Source: a virus
Lineage: Duplodnaviria; Caudoviricetes
DNA length: 54,922 nucleotides
Direction: 5' to 3' (one strand)
IMG/VR virus record: IMGVR_UViG_3300049259_000054
Location: 1 to 54,922 of that record
Shown: positions 12,438-46,907 of the stretch, piece by piece
Layout: each line of letters starts with the position of its first letter
How positions within the stretch are numbered: position 1 is the first letter of the stretch
Notes under the pieces: model-generated
What the model saw: only the letters and a program-made list of their open reading frames with translations
The model's database searches: none
What the model was told of the DNA's origin: nothing
Translations under genes and position numbers: made by a program

Positions 12438-13349
12438 TTAGGCACCGTCGTGTTCCTTCCCGATCCGTTGGTATTTCTCGTCCAACTGCCGAAACCCCGA
12501 CGCCTTCAGGGTCTGCTCGATCGGGACACCCTTCCGGGCGAGCAAATGCGCCTCAGTGAAGTCGCATTTCCAGTGGCATTGATTCGGGTTCGGGGAGGAG
12601 TACGGCTGGGCGTTCTGGGTGGAATAGGCCGCCCGCGCAGCGCGGTAGGCGTCCCACGCCAAGTTCGACAGTTCCAGGTCGGTCCGGGACAGCGGGATCC
12701 GTTTGAACCGTTCCTCGATCGGTTGTTCCTTGGTCTTCAGCTTGTAAGTGCGGGCGCCGGAGTACAGGAACCCGTGGACCGGTTTGCCGAGCTGGCGCAT
12801 CCCCCAGGTGTAGATTCCGAACTGGTCATCCAGGTCCAGGTCTTTCTCCCGATCCAGGTCCTTACCGCTCTTGTGGTCCACCAGCCAGACCCGGTGGGTG
12901 GACCGGACCCGCACAATCAGGTCGATCTTGACCTTGATGGAGAATCGGGAGTCGGCGCCTTCGGCGTTGGGCAGCGGAACGACCCGCTTGTCTTCCACTT
13001 GCAGAATGTCCCAGTCGGGGTCGACCCCCCACCGTTGGATGTACCCCTCGTACATCCATTGGATTAGCGCTTGGTCTTCGCTCTGCCCACCTTGGGTGTG
13101 CAGGTACGGCATAACCTTTTCCTTGGCGAGTTTAAGCCGTGATGCGTGGCCTGGTTCGCCTGCGGTGGCTTTCAGGCTGCGGTAGTGCGCCTCCATCACT
13201 TGGTGCCACAGGATGCCCTTAGCGAGCGCGGTGCCTTCTTTCTCCGGCCGCGCCCAACGCTGTTTATATTCCAGCAGGTGTTTCAATGGGCAGTCGCGGA
13301 AGGCGGCGAGTTCAGAATATGAGACGGTAATCTCAGGCGGCGCGGTCAT
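12438..13349 (-). CDS. PD-(D/E)XK (RecB/Cas4-like) exonuclease
   Basis: SYSEL-x4-CP, G-x2-WH-x2-ME, E...KIDLI...LVDHKS, C-terminal CHWKCDF. Confidence 0.85.
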   Translation of the reverse strand: MTAPPEITVSYSELAAFRDCPLKHLLEYKQRWARPEKEGTALAKGILWHQVMEAHYRSLKATAGEPGHASRLKLAKEKVMPYLHTQGGQSEDQALIQWMYEGYIQRWGVDPDWDILQVEDKRVVPLPNAEGADSRFSIKVKIDLIVRVRSTHRVWLVDHKSGKDLDREKDLDLDDQFGIYTWGMRQLGKPVHGFLYSGARTYKLKTKEQPIEERFKRIPLSRTDLELSNLAWDAYRAARAAYSTQNAQPYSSPNPNQCHWKCDFTEAHLLARKGVPIEQTLKASGFRQLDEKYQRIGKEHDGA

Positions 13350-14442: not shown

Positions 14443-14584
14443 CCTTCAGGTTGCCCTGATAGTTCTGGCCGCGCAGTTCAGACACCCGCTCTTCGCACAT
14501 CGCCTTGTCGATCTTCCGGCCGGCCTTGCGAGCCTGCACCCGAACGTCCAGGGCGATGATCTCGGCGGCTTCGGTCTTTGTCAT
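14378..14584 (-). CDS. Hypothetical protein, leaderless
   Basis: ATG 5 nt downstream of TATAAT. Confidence 0.7.
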   Translation of the reverse strand: MTKTEAAEIIALDVRVQARKAGRKIDKAMCEERVSELRGQNYQGNLKGDAANIASPRTVLRIALRDEL

Positions 14585-14598
14585 ACTTTATTATAACA

Positions 14599-15720
14599 CT
14601 ACCCTTGCTTAGGCGCAAGTGCATATCGACCGAGGTTGTCCGGCCGGGACCGGGTCGCCCGCTGCGCCCACTCCAGGTTAAGCCGACACTGCCGCTCATC
14701 CACGACCATCCCCCGTGCCAGCCCGGCGGTCTCGCCCAACACGGTCGCCGCGACGTGACACAGGTCCACCAATGCCACCCGCTCGACGCTGCTGTGGCTG
14801 ATGTCGCGTTCATGCCACAGCGCCACATTCTCAAGCAGCGGCGGCAGGTATCCGCGCGCCAACCGGACCAAACCGCAGATCTTCTCCGCGGTTACCGGGT
14901 TGGTTTTGTGTGGCATCGCCGACGAACCAACCTGACCGACCCCGAAAGGCTCCATGATCTCCGCGACTTCCGAACGCGCGGAATGCCGAATCTCTAATGC
15001 AAACGCTTCGCACACGCCTAAGGCGTTTACCAGACAGGCCGCCCAGTGGGCGATCCCGTCGCGCATCACCACTTGGGTGGTGAACGGTAGTGAGGTCAGG
15101 CCGAGGAAATCCAACACATCGGCCTCAATTGCGGGTGATATCCCGTCGTGGTCGTACCTCCCGACCGGGCCGGAAACCTTCCCGACCGCGATACTGGACT
15201 TCGCCTGTCGAAACCTCGTCCCGGTCCGTATCAGCCCGGCCTGTAAATCCGACAGTTTATTGCCGAGCGTGGTAGGCACCGCCCAACGGCCGTGGGTCCG
15301 TCCGATCCGGTCGGTGTGCCCGTATTCGATCGCGCGGGCTCCGATCGCGGAGCCGGCGGCGCCGATCCGTTTCTGCAAGACGTTCGAAACGGTCAATAGT
15401 GCCATCCCCAAGCCGGTGTCGACCAGATCGGAGGAGGTCAAACCGTAATGAGCGTATTCGAACGCCGGATCGTTGTGGTTGGTCTCACGCCAAGCCTGCA
15501 GGAACGCCGCCACATCGTGGCGGGTGGTCTGTTCATGTTCGGCGACCCGGCCTGCCCCGGGCGCTGCCGACCCCCCGATAATCGCCGCGGCGTTTGGAGG
15601 GATCACACCGGCAATAGCTTGGGCTCGAGCTACGGACAGTTCGATCTGGTGCCACCGGTTGATCTTGGCGGTCTCGTCGAACACCGCGGCGATATCAGGA
15701 TCTTCGTACCTGTCGATCAC
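14599..15720 (-). CDS. purB: Adenylosuccinate lyase (Bacillus-type, C-terminally shortened)
   Basis: MIDRY, TRHDVAAF, HYGLTSSD, GRTHG, GKVSGPVG, TTQVVMRD, fumarate-lyase signature GSSAMPHKTNP, LWHERDISHSSVER. Confidence 0.93.
   Translation of the reverse strand: MIDRYEDPDIAAVFDETAKINRWHQIELSVARAQAIAGVIPPNAAAIIGGSAAPGAGRVAEHEQTTRHDVAAFLQAWRETNHNDPAFEYAHYGLTSSDLVDTGLGMALLTVSNVLQKRIGAAGSAIGARAIEYGHTDRIGRTHGRWAVPTTLGNKLSDLQAGLIRTGTRFRQAKSSIAVGKVSGPVGRYDHDGISPAIEADVLDFLGLTSLPFTTQVVMRDGIAHWAACLVNALGVCEAFALEIRHSARSEVAEIMEPFGVGQVGSSAMPHKTNPVTAEKICGLVRLARGYLPPLLENVALWHERDISHSSVERVALVDLCHVAATVLGETAGLARGMVVDERQCRLNLEWAQRATRSRPDNLGRYALAPKQG
14604..14619 (-). promoter_or_regulatory. Operator plus strong promoter (TTGCGC-17-TATAAT)
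   Basis: cttgc ttaggc gcaag. Confidence 0.85.
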
Positions 15721-15774
15721 TAGCGTTCCCTCCCGATGATGCCGGACCTGTCGGCCGAGGCCCGGGCCGTGCGG

Positions 15775-16401
15775 TTAAGCGTCGACTGCGGACAGTTGGC
15801 GCTGTTGACGGGTGGCAGTGCTGGAAGCGATGACGGGGTCCGCTCCCTGCTGTTCTACCAACGCGGCGGCTTCCGCGTAGGTCGGATCGTCTTCGATCAG
15901 ACCGGTCGGCCAAGACCTGGCGATCAGCTCCGCGCAGGCTTCCACCGAGGTCCGGCCGGCGCGCTCGGCGGCGAGCTTCAACAGCTCACTTTTCAGCTTC
16001 GCGTCGTGGCCGGGGTGGAAGATCCCGCCTTTCGTGATCCCGCCACACCACTGGCAGACGCCAGCTTTCTTGGTGCGTGGGGTTGGCTCCTTCTTGGGCA
16101 TTGCTGCTCCCTTGGGTTGGGTCTTGCATTCCTGGATCATTTGCCAGGTGGTACTGCGCAGGGTTCGCTGCCGCTGGGTGTCTTGGCACGCCTCCTTATT
16201 GTTGCAGGACCGGTCTGCCTCGTCGACGTCTTCGATCGACCGGCAGTGGGTACAGGCGGGTTTCTGCCCCGCGTGGCAGTCGCAACGGCACAGGTGGACG
16301 CCGCTGGGGGTTCGGACGGCGCCGAGGCACAGGTCATGCCTGGTGCCGGCGCACCCGCCCGTGAGGATGGGCGGGAGCGCCTTCTTCTTGGTCGCGGGCA
16401 C
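15775..16401 (-). CDS. Cys-rich hypothetical protein with CQWCGG...FHPGHDAKLK motif
   Basis: Several Cys/His clusters; start placed after the upstream stop. Confidence 0.65.
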   Translation of the reverse strand: MPATKKKALPPILTGGCAGTRHDLCLGAVRTPSGVHLCRCDCHAGQKPACTHCRSIEDVDEADRSCNNKEACQDTQRQRTLRSTTWQMIQECKTQPKGAAMPKKEPTPRTKKAGVCQWCGGITKGGIFHPGHDAKLKSELLKLAAERAGRTSVEACAELIARSWPTGLIEDDPTYAEAAALVEQQGADPVIASSTATRQQRQLSAVDA

Positions 16402-16406
16402 CGGCG

Positions 16407-16778
16407 TTACTCGGCCGATTTGGTCTGCTCGGCGCGGGCTTTCTCGCCCTTGCGGATCAGGTCTTCGACCTGAGCGACCCCTTCGGGCTGCAGCAGATGC
16501 GCGGCGATCGACAGGGCGGACCCGGTGACGAACATCCCGGACTGTAGGGAGACTTCGACGCCTGCCAGCGCAGCGCGGGACAGCTTGCCTTTCAGGCGCT
16601 GGTCGTGGCCGCGAATGAATTGGTATTTGGGGTGGTGTTCGTGGCCGCAACCGCAGTAGCAGTCTTCGCCTTCAACGATCAGGATCAGCGAGTCGTCTTC
16701 GGCGGCGGGTTCGCTGCGGTAGCCGCTGGCGCCGGGACTGGATTCGACGGTGGGCTGCCATTTCCGGTTCTTGGTCAT
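16407..16778 (-). CDS. Hypothetical protein with CYCGCG...FIRGHDQRLK motif
   Basis: GAAGGA RBS before MTKNRK; promoter just upstream. Confidence 0.7.
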   Translation of the reverse strand: MTKNRKWQPTVESSPGASGYRSEPAAEDDSLILIVEGEDCYCGCGHEHHPKYQFIRGHDQRLKGKLSRAALAGVEVSLQSGMFVTGSALSIAAHLLQPEGVAQVEDLIRKGEKARAEQTKSAE

Positions 16779-16836
16779 TTTCGGTGTCCTTCGGCTGAGG
16801 GTCGCGGGCCGTTCCGCTGTCTGTGGTTCTATTCTA

Positions 16837-17292
16837 TCATTTGGCTTGCGCTTGCGCAAGTTCGGGGCGGAGGATCGCGTGCCAGCCATGAAGTTCAGCA
16901 CTGAGCGCGTGCTCGCCGGCCTGCAGCCGCTTTGCCATCGACTTGATCCCGCGGACCCGCAGCAACCCTACGGTAGGCTTCTGAATCGACGCCGGCTGCA
17001 TGGTCAGCGGCACGCCGTACACTCGAGCCAGGTACTTCACCACGCCGATCCGTTCGCAGGTGCCCATCTCAGACCCTGTCTGCGCCATCGCCTGGTCCGG
17101 GTACAGGTTGAACTGCTCAACCACCAGGCCGTCGATGTTGTGATCCGAAACCATCTTGGTCAGATAATTCTCGCATTCCTCGGGCGCGAACTCCCACGCG
17201 GCGTAGCAACGCCACGACTCGTTGTGCTCATCGTCGAACATGGCGATCCCGTTGTGGACGGCGCCCGGATCCAGCGCGAGTAGGGTTGTCAC
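16837..17292 (-). CDS. RuvC-like Holliday junction resolvase (RNase H fold)
   Basis: LLALDPG-x2-NG, LVVEQF, ERIGVVKY, QPAS, HALSA. Confidence 0.75.
   Translation of the reverse strand: MTTLLALDPGAVHNGIAMFDDEHNESWRCYAAWEFAPEECENYLTKMVSDHNIDGLVVEQFNLYPDQAMAQTGSEMGTCERIGVVKYLARVYGVPLTMQPASIQKPTVGLLRVRGIKSMAKRLQAGEHALSAELHGWHAILRPELAQAQAK
16845..16860 (-). promoter_or_regulatory. Operator plus promoter (TTGCGC-17-TAGAAT) for the unit ending in purB
   Basis: cttgc gcttgc gcaag. Confidence 0.8.
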
Positions 17293-44054: not shown

Positions 44055-45023
44055 TTAACTGCCGGATGAACCGAACCCGTTGCTGCCGCGGGCGTGGCTG
44101 GTCAACTCTTTCGCCCACACCGGGGTTAGGCCGCGGGTGCTGTTTTCCAGGATGATCAACTGGGCGAGCCGTTCGCCGACTCCAACCTTCACCGGTTCGT
44201 CGGTCATGTTCTGTACTCCTGCGTATAGCTCGCCGCGGTAGCCGCAGTCTATGATACCAGGGTTGACCAGGAGCCCGCGCTTCCGGAGGGTGGAAGACCG
44301 CCCGACCAAGAATCCCCAGGTGTGGGCTGGCAGTTGGACGGCGATCCCGCAGTGGATGTCGACGAAGCTGCGTGGCGGCACTGCCGCAGCTTCAGACACG
44401 TACAGGTCCAGGCCGGCGTCGTCCGGGTGTACCCGGGTGGGGCATTGGACGGTGCCGGATACCATCTGCATCGGCAGCTCGGCTGCAGAGTATTTTTGCT
44501 CGGAGGGCGCCCATGCGGTCCGGTCGCTTTCGGTCTGTGCGATCTTCCCGTATTTGGTGGCGGCCCACCTGGCGGTGTTGGCGATAAGCTCCTCAGCGGC
44601 GGAGTCGGCCGACAATCCGTGGCCGGTCAGGAAGGCCATCGCTGAATAGGCGCCGGTGTGGGACGGCGTGAAGTAACGGATTCGGTCGTCGGATTGCGGC
44701 ATCGCGTAATTCCGGTCGATGTCGATATCGGTCAGGACGGCGCATTTTTGATTGTATTGCAGGGTCCGGTTGATCTCCACCGGTACGCCGTAGGTCGGGA
44801 CGCCCGCCGGCAGGTAGGCGATCAACCCTTCGCATGCCTCTTGGGCGGATAGGTTGATGTCGGCGATGGCGGGTTCCGGACCTTCGGCGTAGATGTTGAA
44901 CGCATGGCCGGGTTCGTACAAGTTTACCTTGTAGGCTGCGGCGGCGGTCCGGATGTGTACCCGAGCATCGATCGACCCTTCCGCCCGGCCTGCGCGGTCG
45001 ATGGGGTGGGCGAAGTAGATCAC
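44055..45023 (-). CDS. Fusion of a nucleoside 2-deoxyribosyltransferase/N-glycosidase-like domain and a trimeric dUTPase-fold dNTP pyrophosphatase
   Basis: N-terminal IYFAHPI...INLSA-x3-C-x-GLIAYL...GVPVEI. C-terminal has all five dUTPase motifs: AGLDL, GRSS, GIIDCGYRGE, RLAQL, RGSNGFGSSG. Confidence 0.85.
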   Translation of the reverse strand: MIYFAHPIDRAGRAEGSIDARVHIRTAAAAYKVNLYEPGHAFNIYAEGPEPAIADINLSAQEACEGLIAYLPAGVPTYGVPVEINRTLQYNQKCAVLTDIDIDRNYAMPQSDDRIRYFTPSHTGAYSAMAFLTGHGLSADSAAEELIANTARWAATKYGKIAQTESDRTAWAPSEQKYSAAELPMQMVSGTVQCPTRVHPDDAGLDLYVSEAAAVPPRSFVDIHCGIAVQLPAHTWGFLVGRSSTLRKRGLLVNPGIIDCGYRGELYAGVQNMTDEPVKVGVGERLAQLIILENSTRGLTPVWAKELTSHARGSNGFGSSGS

Positions 45024-45340: not shown

Positions 45341-45735
45341 CGACCCGTGTCACGGATCCGCGTCATCATCACCGAATAGACCTCCAGGTCAAATTCGGAA
45401 TCCGGATGTGGTAGTACGCCCTGCTCTAACGCCCCGAAGATCCGCGCCACCTTACCTAAGGCGTAGAACGCAGTGGCGGCATAGCGGCCGTACTGTGCCT
45501 TCTCTTCGTCGGTCGCGCCATCCAACCGGTCCCCCATCATCCCGACCATCGCTTGACCCATCAAGTCCAAATCCGACGCGCCATATTGGATCGCCTTGGG
45601 GGTGGTACGGGAGATAGTGACAGCGGCATGCCTTCCCCACCAGTCCGCGATCTCTCCGACCCTCTCCTCGAACTCGTCGGTCTTAGCCTGTTCCATCCGG
45701 ACGGTCTCCTCTTCGATCTTATGGACGTTGCTCAT
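45331..45735 (-). CDS. All-alpha nucleotide-modification-associated protein (Nmad1/DUF1599 or MazG-like; candidate MazZ equivalent)
   Basis: K-x3-YG, K-x2-R and D-x3-D-x3-Y pattern (KAIQYG; GKVAR; DSEFDLEVYS); ATGA-coupled to purZ. Confidence 0.6.
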   Translation of the reverse strand: MSNVHKIEEETVRMEQAKTDEFEERVGEIADWWGRHAAVTISRTTPKAIQYGASDLDLMGQAMVGMMGDRLDGATDEEKAQYGRYAATAFYALGKVARIFGALEQGVLPHPDSEFDLEVYSVMMTRIRDTGRWV

Positions 45736-46907
45736 CGGCTCATCACTTCCAGGACGGTGCCCGGGCCGGTGCCGATAATTGAGGGGCGAACCCCGCAGTC
45801 GTACTCGACCTGATCCAGCAACGCCCTCAGCTCCTTATGATCGCCCCGGTCGACGTTAATATCACTGAGCCGACCGGTCCACCCACCGACGTCCGGGAGC
45901 TGTTGATCCACCATCGACAACCACACCCGGACCGGTCCTTGATCCGGGCCGCCGTTAGCATCGATCGCGGCGCTGGCAAGCTCCGAGTCCCAACCGCCGA
46001 CCCGGCGGGTCTTGTTAGTGACGGTGGTTTTCTCTGCCGGTAAGCCGAGCTCCTCCCAGCTGGTTTCGTCCTTCAACGGGCCGGAGTTGCCGGCAACCCG
46101 GATCGGATAGACCCGCAAGACCACCCAGACTTCCAACCAGCCGGGGGTGACGGTCCAGGGGTTGATTCCTGCCATGGCCAGGAAGTCGATCGCCCGGCAG
46201 TCCGAGGAGGTCACTTGCGGGTAGTGTTGGGTGTGCAACCCGAGCCCGTAACCTTGGGTGCCTTCCAGGATGACGTGTGCGTTGCGGTGGGTCAGGTCGT
46301 TGTTCAGTATCGCGGCGGTATCGTCGCAGAATGCGACACCGCGGTCGGCCAGCGCCTGTATCGGGTCGGTGTTCGACACCGGCGGATACCCGAACGCGTC
46401 GTTGGCGGATTCCGCAGCTCGGCGGGCCTGCCAACCGTTCATCGCGTCCCGCACGGTGAAGGCGGTGCGCATCGCCCGTGCGGCACGTGCGGCGCCGACC
46501 CCCTTACTGGTGGATCCGATCCGCTCGGTCAACTTCACCTCCTGTTCGGTGTCTTTCTCCGCTGAGGTGATCAGGGTCGCTGCAGTGTCCACGATCAGCC
46601 GTTGCCCGACGTCCAGGCCGGCGTCGTCCAACGCGACCACTTCGTTCGCCAGGACTTGCAGGTCGATCTCCGACCCTGCGCCGATGGTCAGGCTAGCGTC
46701 GGGGCGCCCGACAGCGATCACAGGCACCTGCCGAAGCGCCCACTTGCGACCTTCGCTGTCATAGGCGGTGTGCCCGGCGTTGGGGCCGGCGACCCTGACT
46801 CCGACGATCCTCTGGTGTTTGCTGGTGCGGGCGAGGTAGGCGGCGCAGGCGCCTTTCGCTTCCGAGCCGTACTGGCCGCCGACGACCACCGTAAGCTTGC
46901 TCATCAT
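45732..46907 (-). CDS. purZ: PurZ-family 2-aminodeoxyadenylosuccinate synthase, probably the GTP-using PurZ0 type
   Basis: PurA fold with GGQYGSEAKG (Ser where PurA has the catalytic Asp, GDEGKG), GPNAGHT, IGST-x-KGVG, EGTQG, RVYPIRVAGNSGP, TTVT-x3-RRV, SMVD, GTGP. Confidence 0.9.
   Translation of the reverse strand: MMSKLTVVVGGQYGSEAKGACAAYLARTSKHQRIVGVRVAGPNAGHTAYDSEGRKWALRQVPVIAVGRPDASLTIGAGSEIDLQVLANEVVALDDAGLDVGQRLIVDTAATLITSAEKDTEQEVKLTERIGSTSKGVGAARAARAMRTAFTVRDAMNGWQARRAAESANDAFGYPPVSNTDPIQALADRGVAFCDDTAAILNNDLTHRNAHVILEGTQGYGLGLHTQHYPQVTSSDCRAIDFLAMAGINPWTVTPGWLEVWVVLRVYPIRVAGNSGPLKDETSWEELGLPAEKTTVTNKTRRVGGWDSELASAAIDANGGPDQGPVRVWLSMVDQQLPDVGGWTGRLSDINVDRGDHKELRALLDQVEYDCGVRPSIIGTGPGTVLEVMSR

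What the first reader, a model, noticed from the sequence alone, without database searches (positions are those of the whole stretch)
14599..15720. Phage-encoded, shortened PurB: a more self-sufficient Z pathway
Seen: an adenylosuccinate lyase with the catalytic motifs intact (RHD, HYG, RTHG, SSAMPHK) but only 373 aa, apparently lacking the C-terminal helical domain of the roughly 430-aa Bacillus-type enzyme. It lies 30 kb from purZ, last in a unit under the same operator motif. Established: in the characterised Z phages the step after PurZ (dSMP to dZMP) is done by host PurB. Inference: this may be a dedicated lyase specialised for the 2-amino-deoxy substrate. To my knowledge that is not part of the described pathway.
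Basis: partly seen in the sequence, partly recalled or inferred. Interest (0 to 1): 0.88.

Follow-up and report, generated by a model that had tools for sequence, protein, structure and literature searches.

The report
Shortened phage PurB lyase beside PurZ
A phage that carries the gene set for putting 2-aminoadenine (Z) in place of adenine in its DNA also has its own adenylosuccinate lyase, which lacks the usual end domain and probably does the second step of Z synthesis; similar gene pairs are already common in public phage genomes.

Summary
ORF 14599-15720 (-) encodes a 373-aa Bacillus/Thermotoga-type adenylosuccinate lyase (PurB). All the catalytic motifs I checked are intact, but the last ~80 residues (domain 3, ADSL_C) are missing. 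They are not in another frame or elsewhere in the genome. The same ORF appears in independent assemblies, and a 63%-identical 375-aa relative stops at the same point. The genome is a whole 54.9-kb phage with a Ser-type PurZ0 at 45.7-46.9 kb and an NDT-dUTPase fusion like the published DmtZ-DutZ.

Surveys:
- Of 79 IMG/VR records with the closest viral PurB genes, 45 carry a PurA-family gene (15 of the 16 records at least 90% complete); 38 are Ser-type (PurZ).
- Of the 80 closest PurZ records, 31 carry a lyase (16 of the 30 at least 90% complete).
- All seven forms of 380 aa or less lie in PurZ-bearing records. One such clade has dN/dS of 0.07-0.11.

The best reading is an active accessory lyase converting dSMP to dZMP. 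Specialisation for that substrate is untested, and I found no signature for it.

This is not new in kind. Ghobes gp36 (377 aa, also short) and Hiyaa-type phages already carry annotated PurB-like genes beside PurZ. This scan has noted the pairing on at least 45 other genomes. The papers I could search still assign the step to host PurB.

The parts
14599..15720 (-). purB-like adenylosuccinate lyase, 373 aa: domains 1 and 2 complete, domain 3 (ADSL_C) missing, with a 21-residue tail of low model confidence
15729..15734 (-). Ribosome-binding site GGGAGG, 8 nt before the GTG start at 15720
   Evidence: read from the sequence
16831..16859 (-). Promoter-like site TTGCGC-17 nt-TAGAAT. Its -35 is the left arm of the palindrome TTGCGCAAGCGCAA (16846-16859). 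It is the likely start of the three-gene unit that ends with purB.
   Evidence: the function is inferred
14590..14618 (-). Palindrome TTGCGCCTAAGCAA inside the last purB codons, acting as -35, followed 17 nt later by TGT-TATAAT. This is the promoter of the next gene (ATG 14584) and marks the end of the purB unit.
   Evidence: the function is inferred
45732..46907 (-). purZ (PurZ0-like) 2-aminoadenylosuccinate synthetase homologue, P-loop GGQYGSEAKG
44055..45023 (-). Fusion protein whose C-terminal half is a dUTPase domain (residues 193-321). It has the architecture of the published DmtZ-DutZ fusion of Arthrobacter phage Wayne.
   Evidence: PMC12884076 sections 19, 24 and 26. The N-terminal NDT fold was not tested here.

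Best explanation
The gene encodes an active PurB-type adenylosuccinate lyase made by the phage. After the phage PurZ0 condenses dGMP with aspartate to give N6-succino-2-amino-2'-deoxyadenylate (dSMP), this lyase removes fumarate to give dZMP. Host kinases then take dZMP to dZTP.

It works as a homo-oligomer built on the central helix bundle (domain 2), with active sites shared between subunits as in cellular PurB. Domain 3 has been lost without loss of the catalytic residues.

It is an accessory gene. It adds lyase capacity during infection rather than replacing something the host lacks.

Shown: family, fold, intact motifs, the truncation, co-occurrence with PurZ, and purifying selection in a related short clade. 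Inferred: catalytic activity, the substrate and the oligomer.
For: Family and fold:
- Lyase_1, and purB as the best NCBIfam model.
- AlphaFold2 model with pLDDT 85.1 and pTM 0.86.
- Its best PDB fold matches are B. anthracis PurB 2pfm_A (TMq 0.88) and T. maritima 1c3c/1c3u.

Catalytic and substrate-binding positions are all kept: R4/Y5, H68/D69, H91, T95/S96, T142/H143, Q216, S266/S267, K272, N274, E279, R305, S310 and R314. Their roles are recalled from the B. subtilis and T. maritima literature.

The truncation is real and kept:
- The identical protein occurs on contigs from two sources (3 and 2 contigs).
- P0002 (375 aa, 63% identical) stops at the same point and has a similar tail.

Co-occurrence with PurZ:
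- Of 79 IMG/VR records with the nearest viral PurBs, 45 hold a PurA-family gene, and 15 of the 16 at least 90% complete do.
- The P-loop residue is Ser in 38, Asp in 5 and unreadable in 2.
- Of the 80 nearest PurZ records, 31 hold Lyase_1, and 16 of the 30 at least 90% complete do.
- Among cultured phages, the 6 Gordonia and 5 Streptomyces records with PurZ match in number the 6 and 5 records with PurB.

Short forms:
- All 7 forms of 380 aa or less, counting the window's, are in Ser-type PurZ records.
- A 364-aa clade has dN/dS of 0.068-0.109 over 6 pairs.

Homodimer model:
- Score 0.60 against 0.00 for the best of 3 controls.
- That mark was reached by 20 of 30 proteins solved as pairs of one chain and by 1 of 23 solved as single chains.
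- The runs share at least 79% of their contacts, and the partner's pLDDT is at least 89.
- The confident interface uses residues 140-307 only, so it does not involve the missing domain.
- Solved PurB tetramers exist, so this pass may only reflect that likeness.

Expression signals: a strong RBS and a place in a promoter-headed unit.
Against: - There is no biochemical evidence for this protein or for any phage PurB in the papers I could search.
- The TIGR00928 score (300.2) is below the equivalog cut-off (326.2), because about 83 model positions are missing.
- Domain 3 lies beside the AMP site and takes open and closed positions in solved lyases (PMC13539675, passages). Its loss could weaken or change activity.
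- The gene is 30 kb from purZ and not in its operon.
- Host PurB evidently suffices for many Z phages. 14 of the 30 near-complete PurZ relatives lack a lyase. None of the Arthrobacter (105), Vibrio (19) or Microbacterium (18) phage records with PurZ appears among the PurB hits.
- PurB also occurs in viral records with Asp-type PurA (5) or with no PurA-family gene (one 94%-complete record).
- No residue change marks a preference for the 2-amino-2'-deoxy substrate.
Confidence: 0.62

Rival explanations
1. It is a general purine-supply gene. It acts like host PurB on SAICAR and adenylosuccinate and raises de novo purine flux (IMP, then GMP and dGMP) during infection, with no particular tie to dSMP.
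For: The catalytic motifs are the same as in cellular PurB. PurB genes also occur in viral records with Asp-type PurA (5 records) or with no PurA-family gene. Cellular actinobacterial PurBs are its nearest full-length relatives at 45-49% identity.
Against: One step of a pathway of more than ten steps is unlikely to limit flux. Making more AMP would work against a phage that removes dATP. The strong link with Ser-type PurZ (38 of 45 PurA-family partners) is not expected under this reading. The two readings are not exclusive, because cellular PurB handles several substrates.
Confidence: 0.15
2. It is a specialised or repurposed lyase. Loss of domain 3 opened or altered the nucleotide pocket, so the enzyme prefers dSMP or another succinylated nucleotide, or escapes mixing with host PurB subunits.
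For: C-terminal shortening recurs among PurZ-linked lyases. Of 55 distinct PurZ-linked rows, 6 are 380 aa or less, 27 are 381-420 aa and 22 are longer; no form of 380 aa or less was seen outside PurZ records. Short forms are under purifying selection. Domain 3 borders the AMP site.
Against: No specificity signature was found. The rows are related, so the counts are not independent events. The AU test does not reject a single clade of all reduced forms (p 0.43). Full-length lyases such as the Hiyaa type (461 aa) also accompany PurZ. Nothing has been measured.
Confidence: 0.15
3. It is an inactive or decaying remnant of a captured host gene, with no catalytic role.
For: Domain 3 is lost, the score is below the equivalog cut-off, and the tail has low model confidence.
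Against: All catalytic motifs are intact although identity to the nearest cellular PurB is only 45-49%. A 63%-identical relative keeps the same length and tail. The frame is intact in independent assemblies. A related short clade has dN/dS of about 0.1. The gene has a strong RBS.
Confidence: 0.06

Closest known systems
Bacterial short-type adenylosuccinate lyase PurB (T. maritima 1C3C/1C3U, B. anthracis 2PFM, B. subtilis 1F1O, S. aureus 2X75; about 431 aa)
   Same: Same fold over domains 1 and 2 (TMq 0.86-0.88, 37-39% identity). Same catalytic motifs. Predicted dimer interface in the central helix bundle.
   Different: It lacks the last ~83 residues (domain 3, ADSL_C), replaced by a 21-residue tail. 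It is encoded by a phage beside PurZ. Its substrate has not been measured.
Gordonia phage Ghobes gp36 'adenylosuccinate lyase' (377 aa), also in Archimedes, Sapo and Frizzle
   Same: A phage with a PurZ0-type Z pathway (PMC12884076, section 19). The lyase is also shortened at the C-terminus and lies in the replication/recombination region near a RecB-like nuclease.
   Different: Only 35-37% identical over about 70% of the query. It sits on a long branch in a different clade, and its HYG histidine is replaced. A shared origin of the truncation is neither shown nor rejected.
'PurB-like adenylosuccinate lyase' of Streptomyces phages Hiyaa, Galactica, Keanu and Spocter (genus Hiyaavirus)
   Same: An actinophage lyase accompanying a PurA-like (PurZ) gene, about 41% identical.
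   Different: It is full length (461 aa), lies under 5 kb from purZ, and the genomes are 81-83 kb.
The host PurB step of the published Z pathway (S-2L, phiVC8, SH-Ab 15497)
   Same: The same proposed reaction, dSMP to dZMP plus fumarate (passages).
   Different: There the enzyme belongs to the host; here the phage supplies a copy. The three 2021 Science papers and Tong et al. 2023 could not be read, so I cannot say whether they mention phage PurB.
P0002, an uncultured 375-aa protein on a 2.3-kb contig
   Same: 63% identical over the full length, the same truncation point and a similar tail.

Membership tests
Adenylosuccinate lyase PurB (fumarate-lyase superfamily) | Lyase_1 (PF00206) domain above the gathering score | tested here: met
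   102.1 bits against a cut-off of 27
Adenylosuccinate lyase PurB (fumarate-lyase superfamily) | Score above the NCBIfam TIGR00928 purB equivalog cut-off | tested here: not met
   300.2 bits against a cut-off of 326.2. It is the best model by far, but only positions 1-353 of 436 are matched.
Adenylosuccinate lyase PurB (fumarate-lyase superfamily) | Signature loop GSSxMPxKxNP with the catalytic Ser, and the two catalytic His (TRHD, RTHG) | tested here: met
   GSSAMPHKTNP at 265-275, H68 and H143. The residue roles are recalled from the literature.
Adenylosuccinate lyase PurB (fumarate-lyase superfamily) | C-terminal domain 3 (ADSL_C, PF10397) | tested here: not met
   No Pfam hit in the protein, in the downstream frames or ORFs or in the whole genome. 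The fold alignment ends at about column 350 of targets 424-434 residues long.
Adenylosuccinate lyase PurB (fumarate-lyase superfamily) | Three-dimensional fold of domains 1 and 2 | tested here: met
   pLDDT 85.1; 2pfm_A with TMq 0.88 and rmsd 2.0
Adenylosuccinate lyase PurB (fumarate-lyase superfamily) | Homo-oligomer with shared active sites | tested here: inconclusive
   The dimer model scored 0.60 against 0.00 for the best of 3 controls. That mark was reached by 20 of 30 solved one-chain pairs and by 1 of 23 single chains. The runs share at least 79% of contacts, and the partner's pLDDT is at least 89. The pass may reflect likeness to solved PurB tetramers. A tetramer was too large to model.
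Adenylosuccinate lyase PurB (fumarate-lyase superfamily) | Lyase activity on adenylosuccinate, SAICAR or dSMP | not testable with these tools
   Needs an enzyme assay
Phage Z-genome (PurZ0-type) nucleotide pathway | PurZ with Ser in place of PurA Asp13 | tested here: met
   GGQYGSEAKG in ORF 45732-46907. The criterion is given in PMC12884076, section 24.
Phage Z-genome (PurZ0-type) nucleotide pathway | DutZ, with or without fused DmtZ, near purZ | tested here: inconclusive
   A dUTPase domain at residues 193-321 of ORF 44055-45023. The N-terminal half matches no profile, and I did not fold it.
Phage Z-genome (PurZ0-type) nucleotide pathway | The lyase is linked to PurZ across genomes | tested here: met
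   38 of 79 viral PurB records hold a Ser-type PurZ, and 12 of the 16 at least 90% complete do. 31 of 80 PurZ records hold a lyase.
Phage Z-genome (PurZ0-type) nucleotide pathway | 2-aminoadenine actually present in the virion DNA | not testable with these tools
   Needs nucleoside analysis of phage DNA

The most novel reading that the evidence does not exclude
PurB lyases without domain 3 are a distinct class of phage enzyme tuned to the Z pathway. On this reading, loss of the C-terminal cap beside the nucleotide site, seen only in PurZ-bearing phages and kept under purifying selection, adapts the enzyme to dSMP or keeps it from mixing with or being regulated like host PurB. About half of PurZ0-type phages would then run the second step of Z synthesis themselves.
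Probability: 0.2. Interest if true: 0.6.

Novelty: new member of a known kind. Interest (0 to 1): 0.4.

Why it matters
The papers I could search describe the Z-DNA pathway as phage PurZ followed by host PurB. These surveys show that a phage-encoded lyase accompanies PurZ in about half of the near-complete relatives of this phage's PurZ, and that many of these lyases have a reduced C-terminal domain. If they are active on dSMP, the minimal gene set for making Z-DNA in new hosts or in vitro could include a compact lyase of 360-375 aa. The role of domain 3 in this enzyme family could also be probed with natural truncations. The gain is modest: the gene pairing is already visible in deposited genomes, and host PurB is known to suffice in the characterised systems.

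Tried and rejected
Frameshift or split gene: rejected. The three downstream frames hold no PurB-like sequence. The next ORFs have no ADSL_C. PF10397 is absent from the genome.

Assembly artefact: rejected. The identical protein is on contigs from two sources.

Close phage relatives by DNA: none in the phage collection.

The search for related loci with the single protein found nothing. The alignment A1 was needed.

Search for residues that separate PurZ-linked from cellular lyases: it produced a long list, but the cellular set was one narrow actinobacterial group. None of the differences lies in the catalytic motifs, so I draw nothing from it.

Single or repeated origin of the truncation: undecided.
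- The FastTree tree leaves the window's clade unresolved.
- The mixture-model tree puts it weakly (81) with cellular PurBs, apart from the other short clades.
- The AU test does not reject one clade of all nine reduced rows (p 0.43).

Representative search: 20 of the 149 other listed representatives are 390 aa or less. I could not fetch their contigs, so I cannot say which are whole genes.

Literature:
- Searches for PurZ+PurB+phage, adenylosuccinate lyase+diaminopurine+phage, aminoadenine+PurB and Z-genome+adenylosuccinate lyase found no paper that describes a phage-encoded PurB.
- A search for adenylosuccinate lyase, adenylosuccinate synthetase and actinobacteriophage listed nothing relevant to phages.
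- A search for PurZ or Ghobes led to PMC12884076, which has no occurrence of PurB or lyase in its main text.
- A search for Hiyaa found nothing.
- The supplements of PMC12884076 and of the bioRxiv preprint were closed and may list Lyase_1 among the annotated domains.
Full report
WHAT IS THERE

The window is a whole IMG/VR virus record of 54,922 bp with direct terminal repeats. On the minus strand, 14599-15720 is an open frame of 373 aa with a GTG start. The start aligns exactly with the conserved PurB N-terminus (MIDRY), and GGGAGG lies 8 nt upstream.

Family matches:
- Pfam finds Lyase_1 at 102 bits.
- The best NCBIfam model by far is TIGR00928 purB (2.3e-89). The score of 300.2 bits is below the equivalog cut-off of 326.2, because only model positions 1-353 of 436 are matched.
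- The best solved relatives by sequence are 431-aa Bacillus/Thermotoga-type lyases. Query residues 1-352 align with residues 1-348 of T. maritima 1c3u.

IS THE TRUNCATION REAL?

- The three frames downstream hold nothing PurB-like.
- The next ORFs have no ADSL_C domain.
- PF10397 has no match anywhere in the genome at E<=1.
- The identical protein is recorded on 3 contigs from one source and 2 from another, the longest being 54,922 and 54,825 bp.
- The nearest relative, P0002, is 63% identical, 375 aa long and ends at the same point with a similar tail.
- An AlphaFold2 model (pLDDT 85.1, pTM 0.86) has confident domains 1 and 2 and a low-confidence tail after about residue 355.
- Its best fold matches are B. 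anthracis PurB 2pfm_A (TMq 0.88, TMt 0.76) and T. maritima 1c3c/1c3u. About 350 columns are aligned, against targets of 424-434 residues.

So the last ~80 residues, domain 3, are absent by evolution and not by error.

IS IT LIKELY TO BE ACTIVE?

Every position I know to be catalytic or substrate-binding in B. subtilis/T. maritima PurB is kept. The roles are recalled from the literature; the residues are read. They are R4/Y5, H68/D69, H91, T95/S96, T142/H143, Q216, S266/S267, K272, N274, E279, R305, S310 and R314.

The same motifs are kept in all the PurZ-linked viral lyases I aligned. The exception is the first His of the HYG motif in the Ghobes protein.

A homodimer model passed its controls:
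- Score 0.60 against 0.00 for the best of 3 controls.
- The mark was reached by 20 of 30 proteins solved as one-chain pairs and by 1 of 23 solved as single chains.
- The runs share at least 79% of contacts, and the partner's pLDDT is at least 89.
- The confident interface uses residues 140-307 only.

Solved PurB tetramers exist, so this pass may only reflect that likeness. It does show that the modelled interface does not need domain 3.

One caveat comes from a paper on Leishmania major ASL (PMC13539675; passages only). It places domain 3 beside the AMP site and speaks of an open position. Its loss could therefore change substrate access.

CONTEXT IN THE GENOME

- ORF 45732-46907 (-) is a PurA-family protein with GGQYGSEAKG, Ser where PurA has Asp. 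PMC12884076 (section 24) uses this criterion for PurZ/PurZ0.
- Two genes downstream, ORF 44055-45023 carries a C-terminal dUTPase domain behind a 190-residue N-terminal half that matches no profile. This is the architecture of the DmtZ-DutZ fusion characterised in Arthrobacter phage Wayne (same paper, sections 19 and 26).
- No guanylate kinase, HD or MazG domain was found. The kinases that follow must come from the host.
- purB lies between a RecB-family exonuclease (12438-13349) and a resolvase-like gene (16837-17292).
- The palindrome TTGC-N6-GCAA occurs 17 times against 0.72 expected.
- One copy (16846-16859) forms TTGCGC-17-TAGAAT ahead of a three-gene unit whose last gene is purB.
- Another copy (14605-14618) lies in the last purB codons, 17 nt before TGT-TATAAT and the next ATG.

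That these sites work as promoters is inferred.

DOES PHAGE purB GO WITH purZ?

From the PurB side:
- An alignment-based scan of IMG/VR found 187 PurB-like stretches. I examined the 80 most similar. 79 of their records could be searched.
- 45 of the 79 hold a PurA-family gene, and 15 of the 16 records at least 90% complete do.
- The P-loop residue is Ser in 38, Asp in 5 and unreadable in 2.
- Among the 16 near-complete records it is Ser in 12, Asp in 2 and unreadable in 1; one record has no such gene.

From the PurZ side:
- At least 565 PurZ-like stretches exist in IMG/VR. I examined the 80 nearest to this phage's PurZ.
- 31 hold a Lyase_1 gene, and 16 of the 30 at least 90% complete do.

In the GenBank phage collection:
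- 181 records match this PurZ: Arthrobacter 105, Vibrio 19, Microbacterium 18, Acinetobacter 7, Gordonia 6, Streptomyces 5 and others.
- The PurB search found 34 records, among them the same numbers of Gordonia (6) and Streptomyces (5) records, and no Arthrobacter, Vibrio or Microbacterium phage.

So the lyase is a frequent but dispensable companion of PurZ. It is concentrated in some lineages. It can also occur with ordinary PurA or alone in large phages.

THE SHORTENING

I scored all the viral lyases against an HMM of 60 cellular 435-aa PurBs.
- The window's protein (373 aa, model end 351) is among the shortest.
- The others are Ghobes gp36 (369 aa from the aligned start, annotated as 377), L067 (359) and a four-member clade of 364 aa.
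- Many PurZ-linked lyases are 402-416 aa and end near model position 380.

By group, after dropping rows cut by a contig end and identical rows:

| Group | Distinct rows | 380 aa or less | 381-420 aa | Longer |
|---|---|---|---|---|
| Ser-type PurZ records | 55 | 6 | 27 | 22 |
| No PurA-family match | 30 | 0 | 12 | 18 |
| Asp-type PurA records | 4 | 0 | 1 | 3 |

In the no-match group, 11 of the 12 mid-length rows belong to the same 410-416-aa clade as PurZ-linked rows and come from fragments. These rows are related, so the counts are not independent events.

The 364-aa clade has dN/dS of 0.068-0.109 over six pairs. At least one lineage without domain 3 is therefore under strong purifying selection.

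Trees put the window's protein with P0002 (100 support). A weak branch (81) links that pair to the cellular actinobacterial PurBs, apart from the other short clades. An AU test does not reject a single clade of all nine reduced rows (p 0.43). I cannot say whether the truncation arose once or several times.

HOW IT MOST LIKELY WORKS

The phage PurZ0 makes dSMP from dGMP and aspartate. This lyase, as a homo-oligomer held by its domain-2 helices, removes fumarate to give dZMP. Host kinases finish the path to dZTP. I give this 0.62.

The rivals are:
- a general purine-supply role (0.15);
- a truly specialised or repurposed short lyase (0.15);
- an inactive remnant (0.06).

A comparison of conserved columns between PurZ-linked and cellular lyases gave no usable specificity signature.

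KNOWN OR NEW?

The two papers that state the step give it to host or bacterial PurB:
- bioRxiv 10.1101/2025.10.22.683976 (passage);
- PMC12783734 (passage).

PMC12135143 (passages) describes defumarylation without saying whose enzyme does it.

PMC12884076 studies Ghobes and Wayne in detail and never mentions PurB or a lyase in its main text. Its Figure 7 legend allows for 'uncharacterized phage proteins'.

The three 2021 Science papers were not held (two were tried). Tong et al. 2023 was not tried. Supplements were closed. I therefore cannot rule out a mention there.

Against novelty:
- Ghobes gp36 has been annotated 'adenylosuccinate lyase', and the Hiyaa-type genes 'PurB-like adenylosuccinate lyase', in GenBank.
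- This scan has noted phage PurB beside PurZ in 54 notes on at least 45 genomes, including a shortened, Ghobes-like one.

I therefore file it as a new, divergent member of a known kind. It is at most 46% identical to any other viral lyase I found, and 63% identical to one uncultured fragment.

LIMITS

- Only the 80 best of 187 PurB stretches, and the 80 best of at least 565 PurZ stretches, were examined.
- Many records are fragments.
- A tetramer was too large for the complex tool.

Noticed in passing
window 44055-45023 (-): A protein with a dUTPase domain at its C-terminus and an N-terminal half that matches no profile, two genes after purZ. This matches the DmtZ-DutZ fusion characterised in Arthrobacter phage Wayne (PMC12884076). 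The first-stage note calling it a candidate DatZ/MazZ replacement now has a published counterpart.
   Followed up: partly
window, 17 sites (2431, 3717, 9195, 14605, 16846, 17315, 19036, 19535, 37981, 45039, 45055, 48445, 49252, 49450, 52169, 52666, 53642): The palindrome TTGC-N6-GCAA occurs 17 times against 0.72 expected by chance. At 16846 and 14605 its left arm serves as a -35 box, 17 nt before a TAnAAT hexamer.
   Followed up: partly
window 15775-16230 (-) and 16407-16778 (-): The two small genes ahead of purB in the same unit share a Cys-rich stretch followed by a GHDxxLK(G/S)xL motif (HPGHDAKLKSELL and IRGHDQRLKGKLS). Only a PHROG of unknown function matches one of them.
   Followed up: no
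window 14582-14598 (-): The gene after purB starts 5 nt after a TGT-TATAAT hexamer, so its transcript may be leaderless or nearly so.
   Followed up: no
L121 871-2562 (+), IMG/VR record G071: A Ser-type PurZ with an N-terminal extension of about 200 residues that begins with a P-loop (GPIAVGKST). It may be a kinase-PurZ fusion, in a record that also has a PurB.
   Followed up: no
L231 (record G090), open frame of 802 codons: A PurB-like region occupies residues 401-755 of a long open frame. This is either an N-terminal fusion or a stop-free upstream stretch in GC-rich DNA.
   Followed up: no
P0003 (544 aa): A PurB with an internal repeat of about 100 residues that includes a second signature loop. 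It could be a duplication or an assembly artefact.
   Followed up: no
whole window: CheckV completeness is given as 75% although the record has direct terminal repeats. No close DNA relative exists in the phage collection.
   Followed up: no
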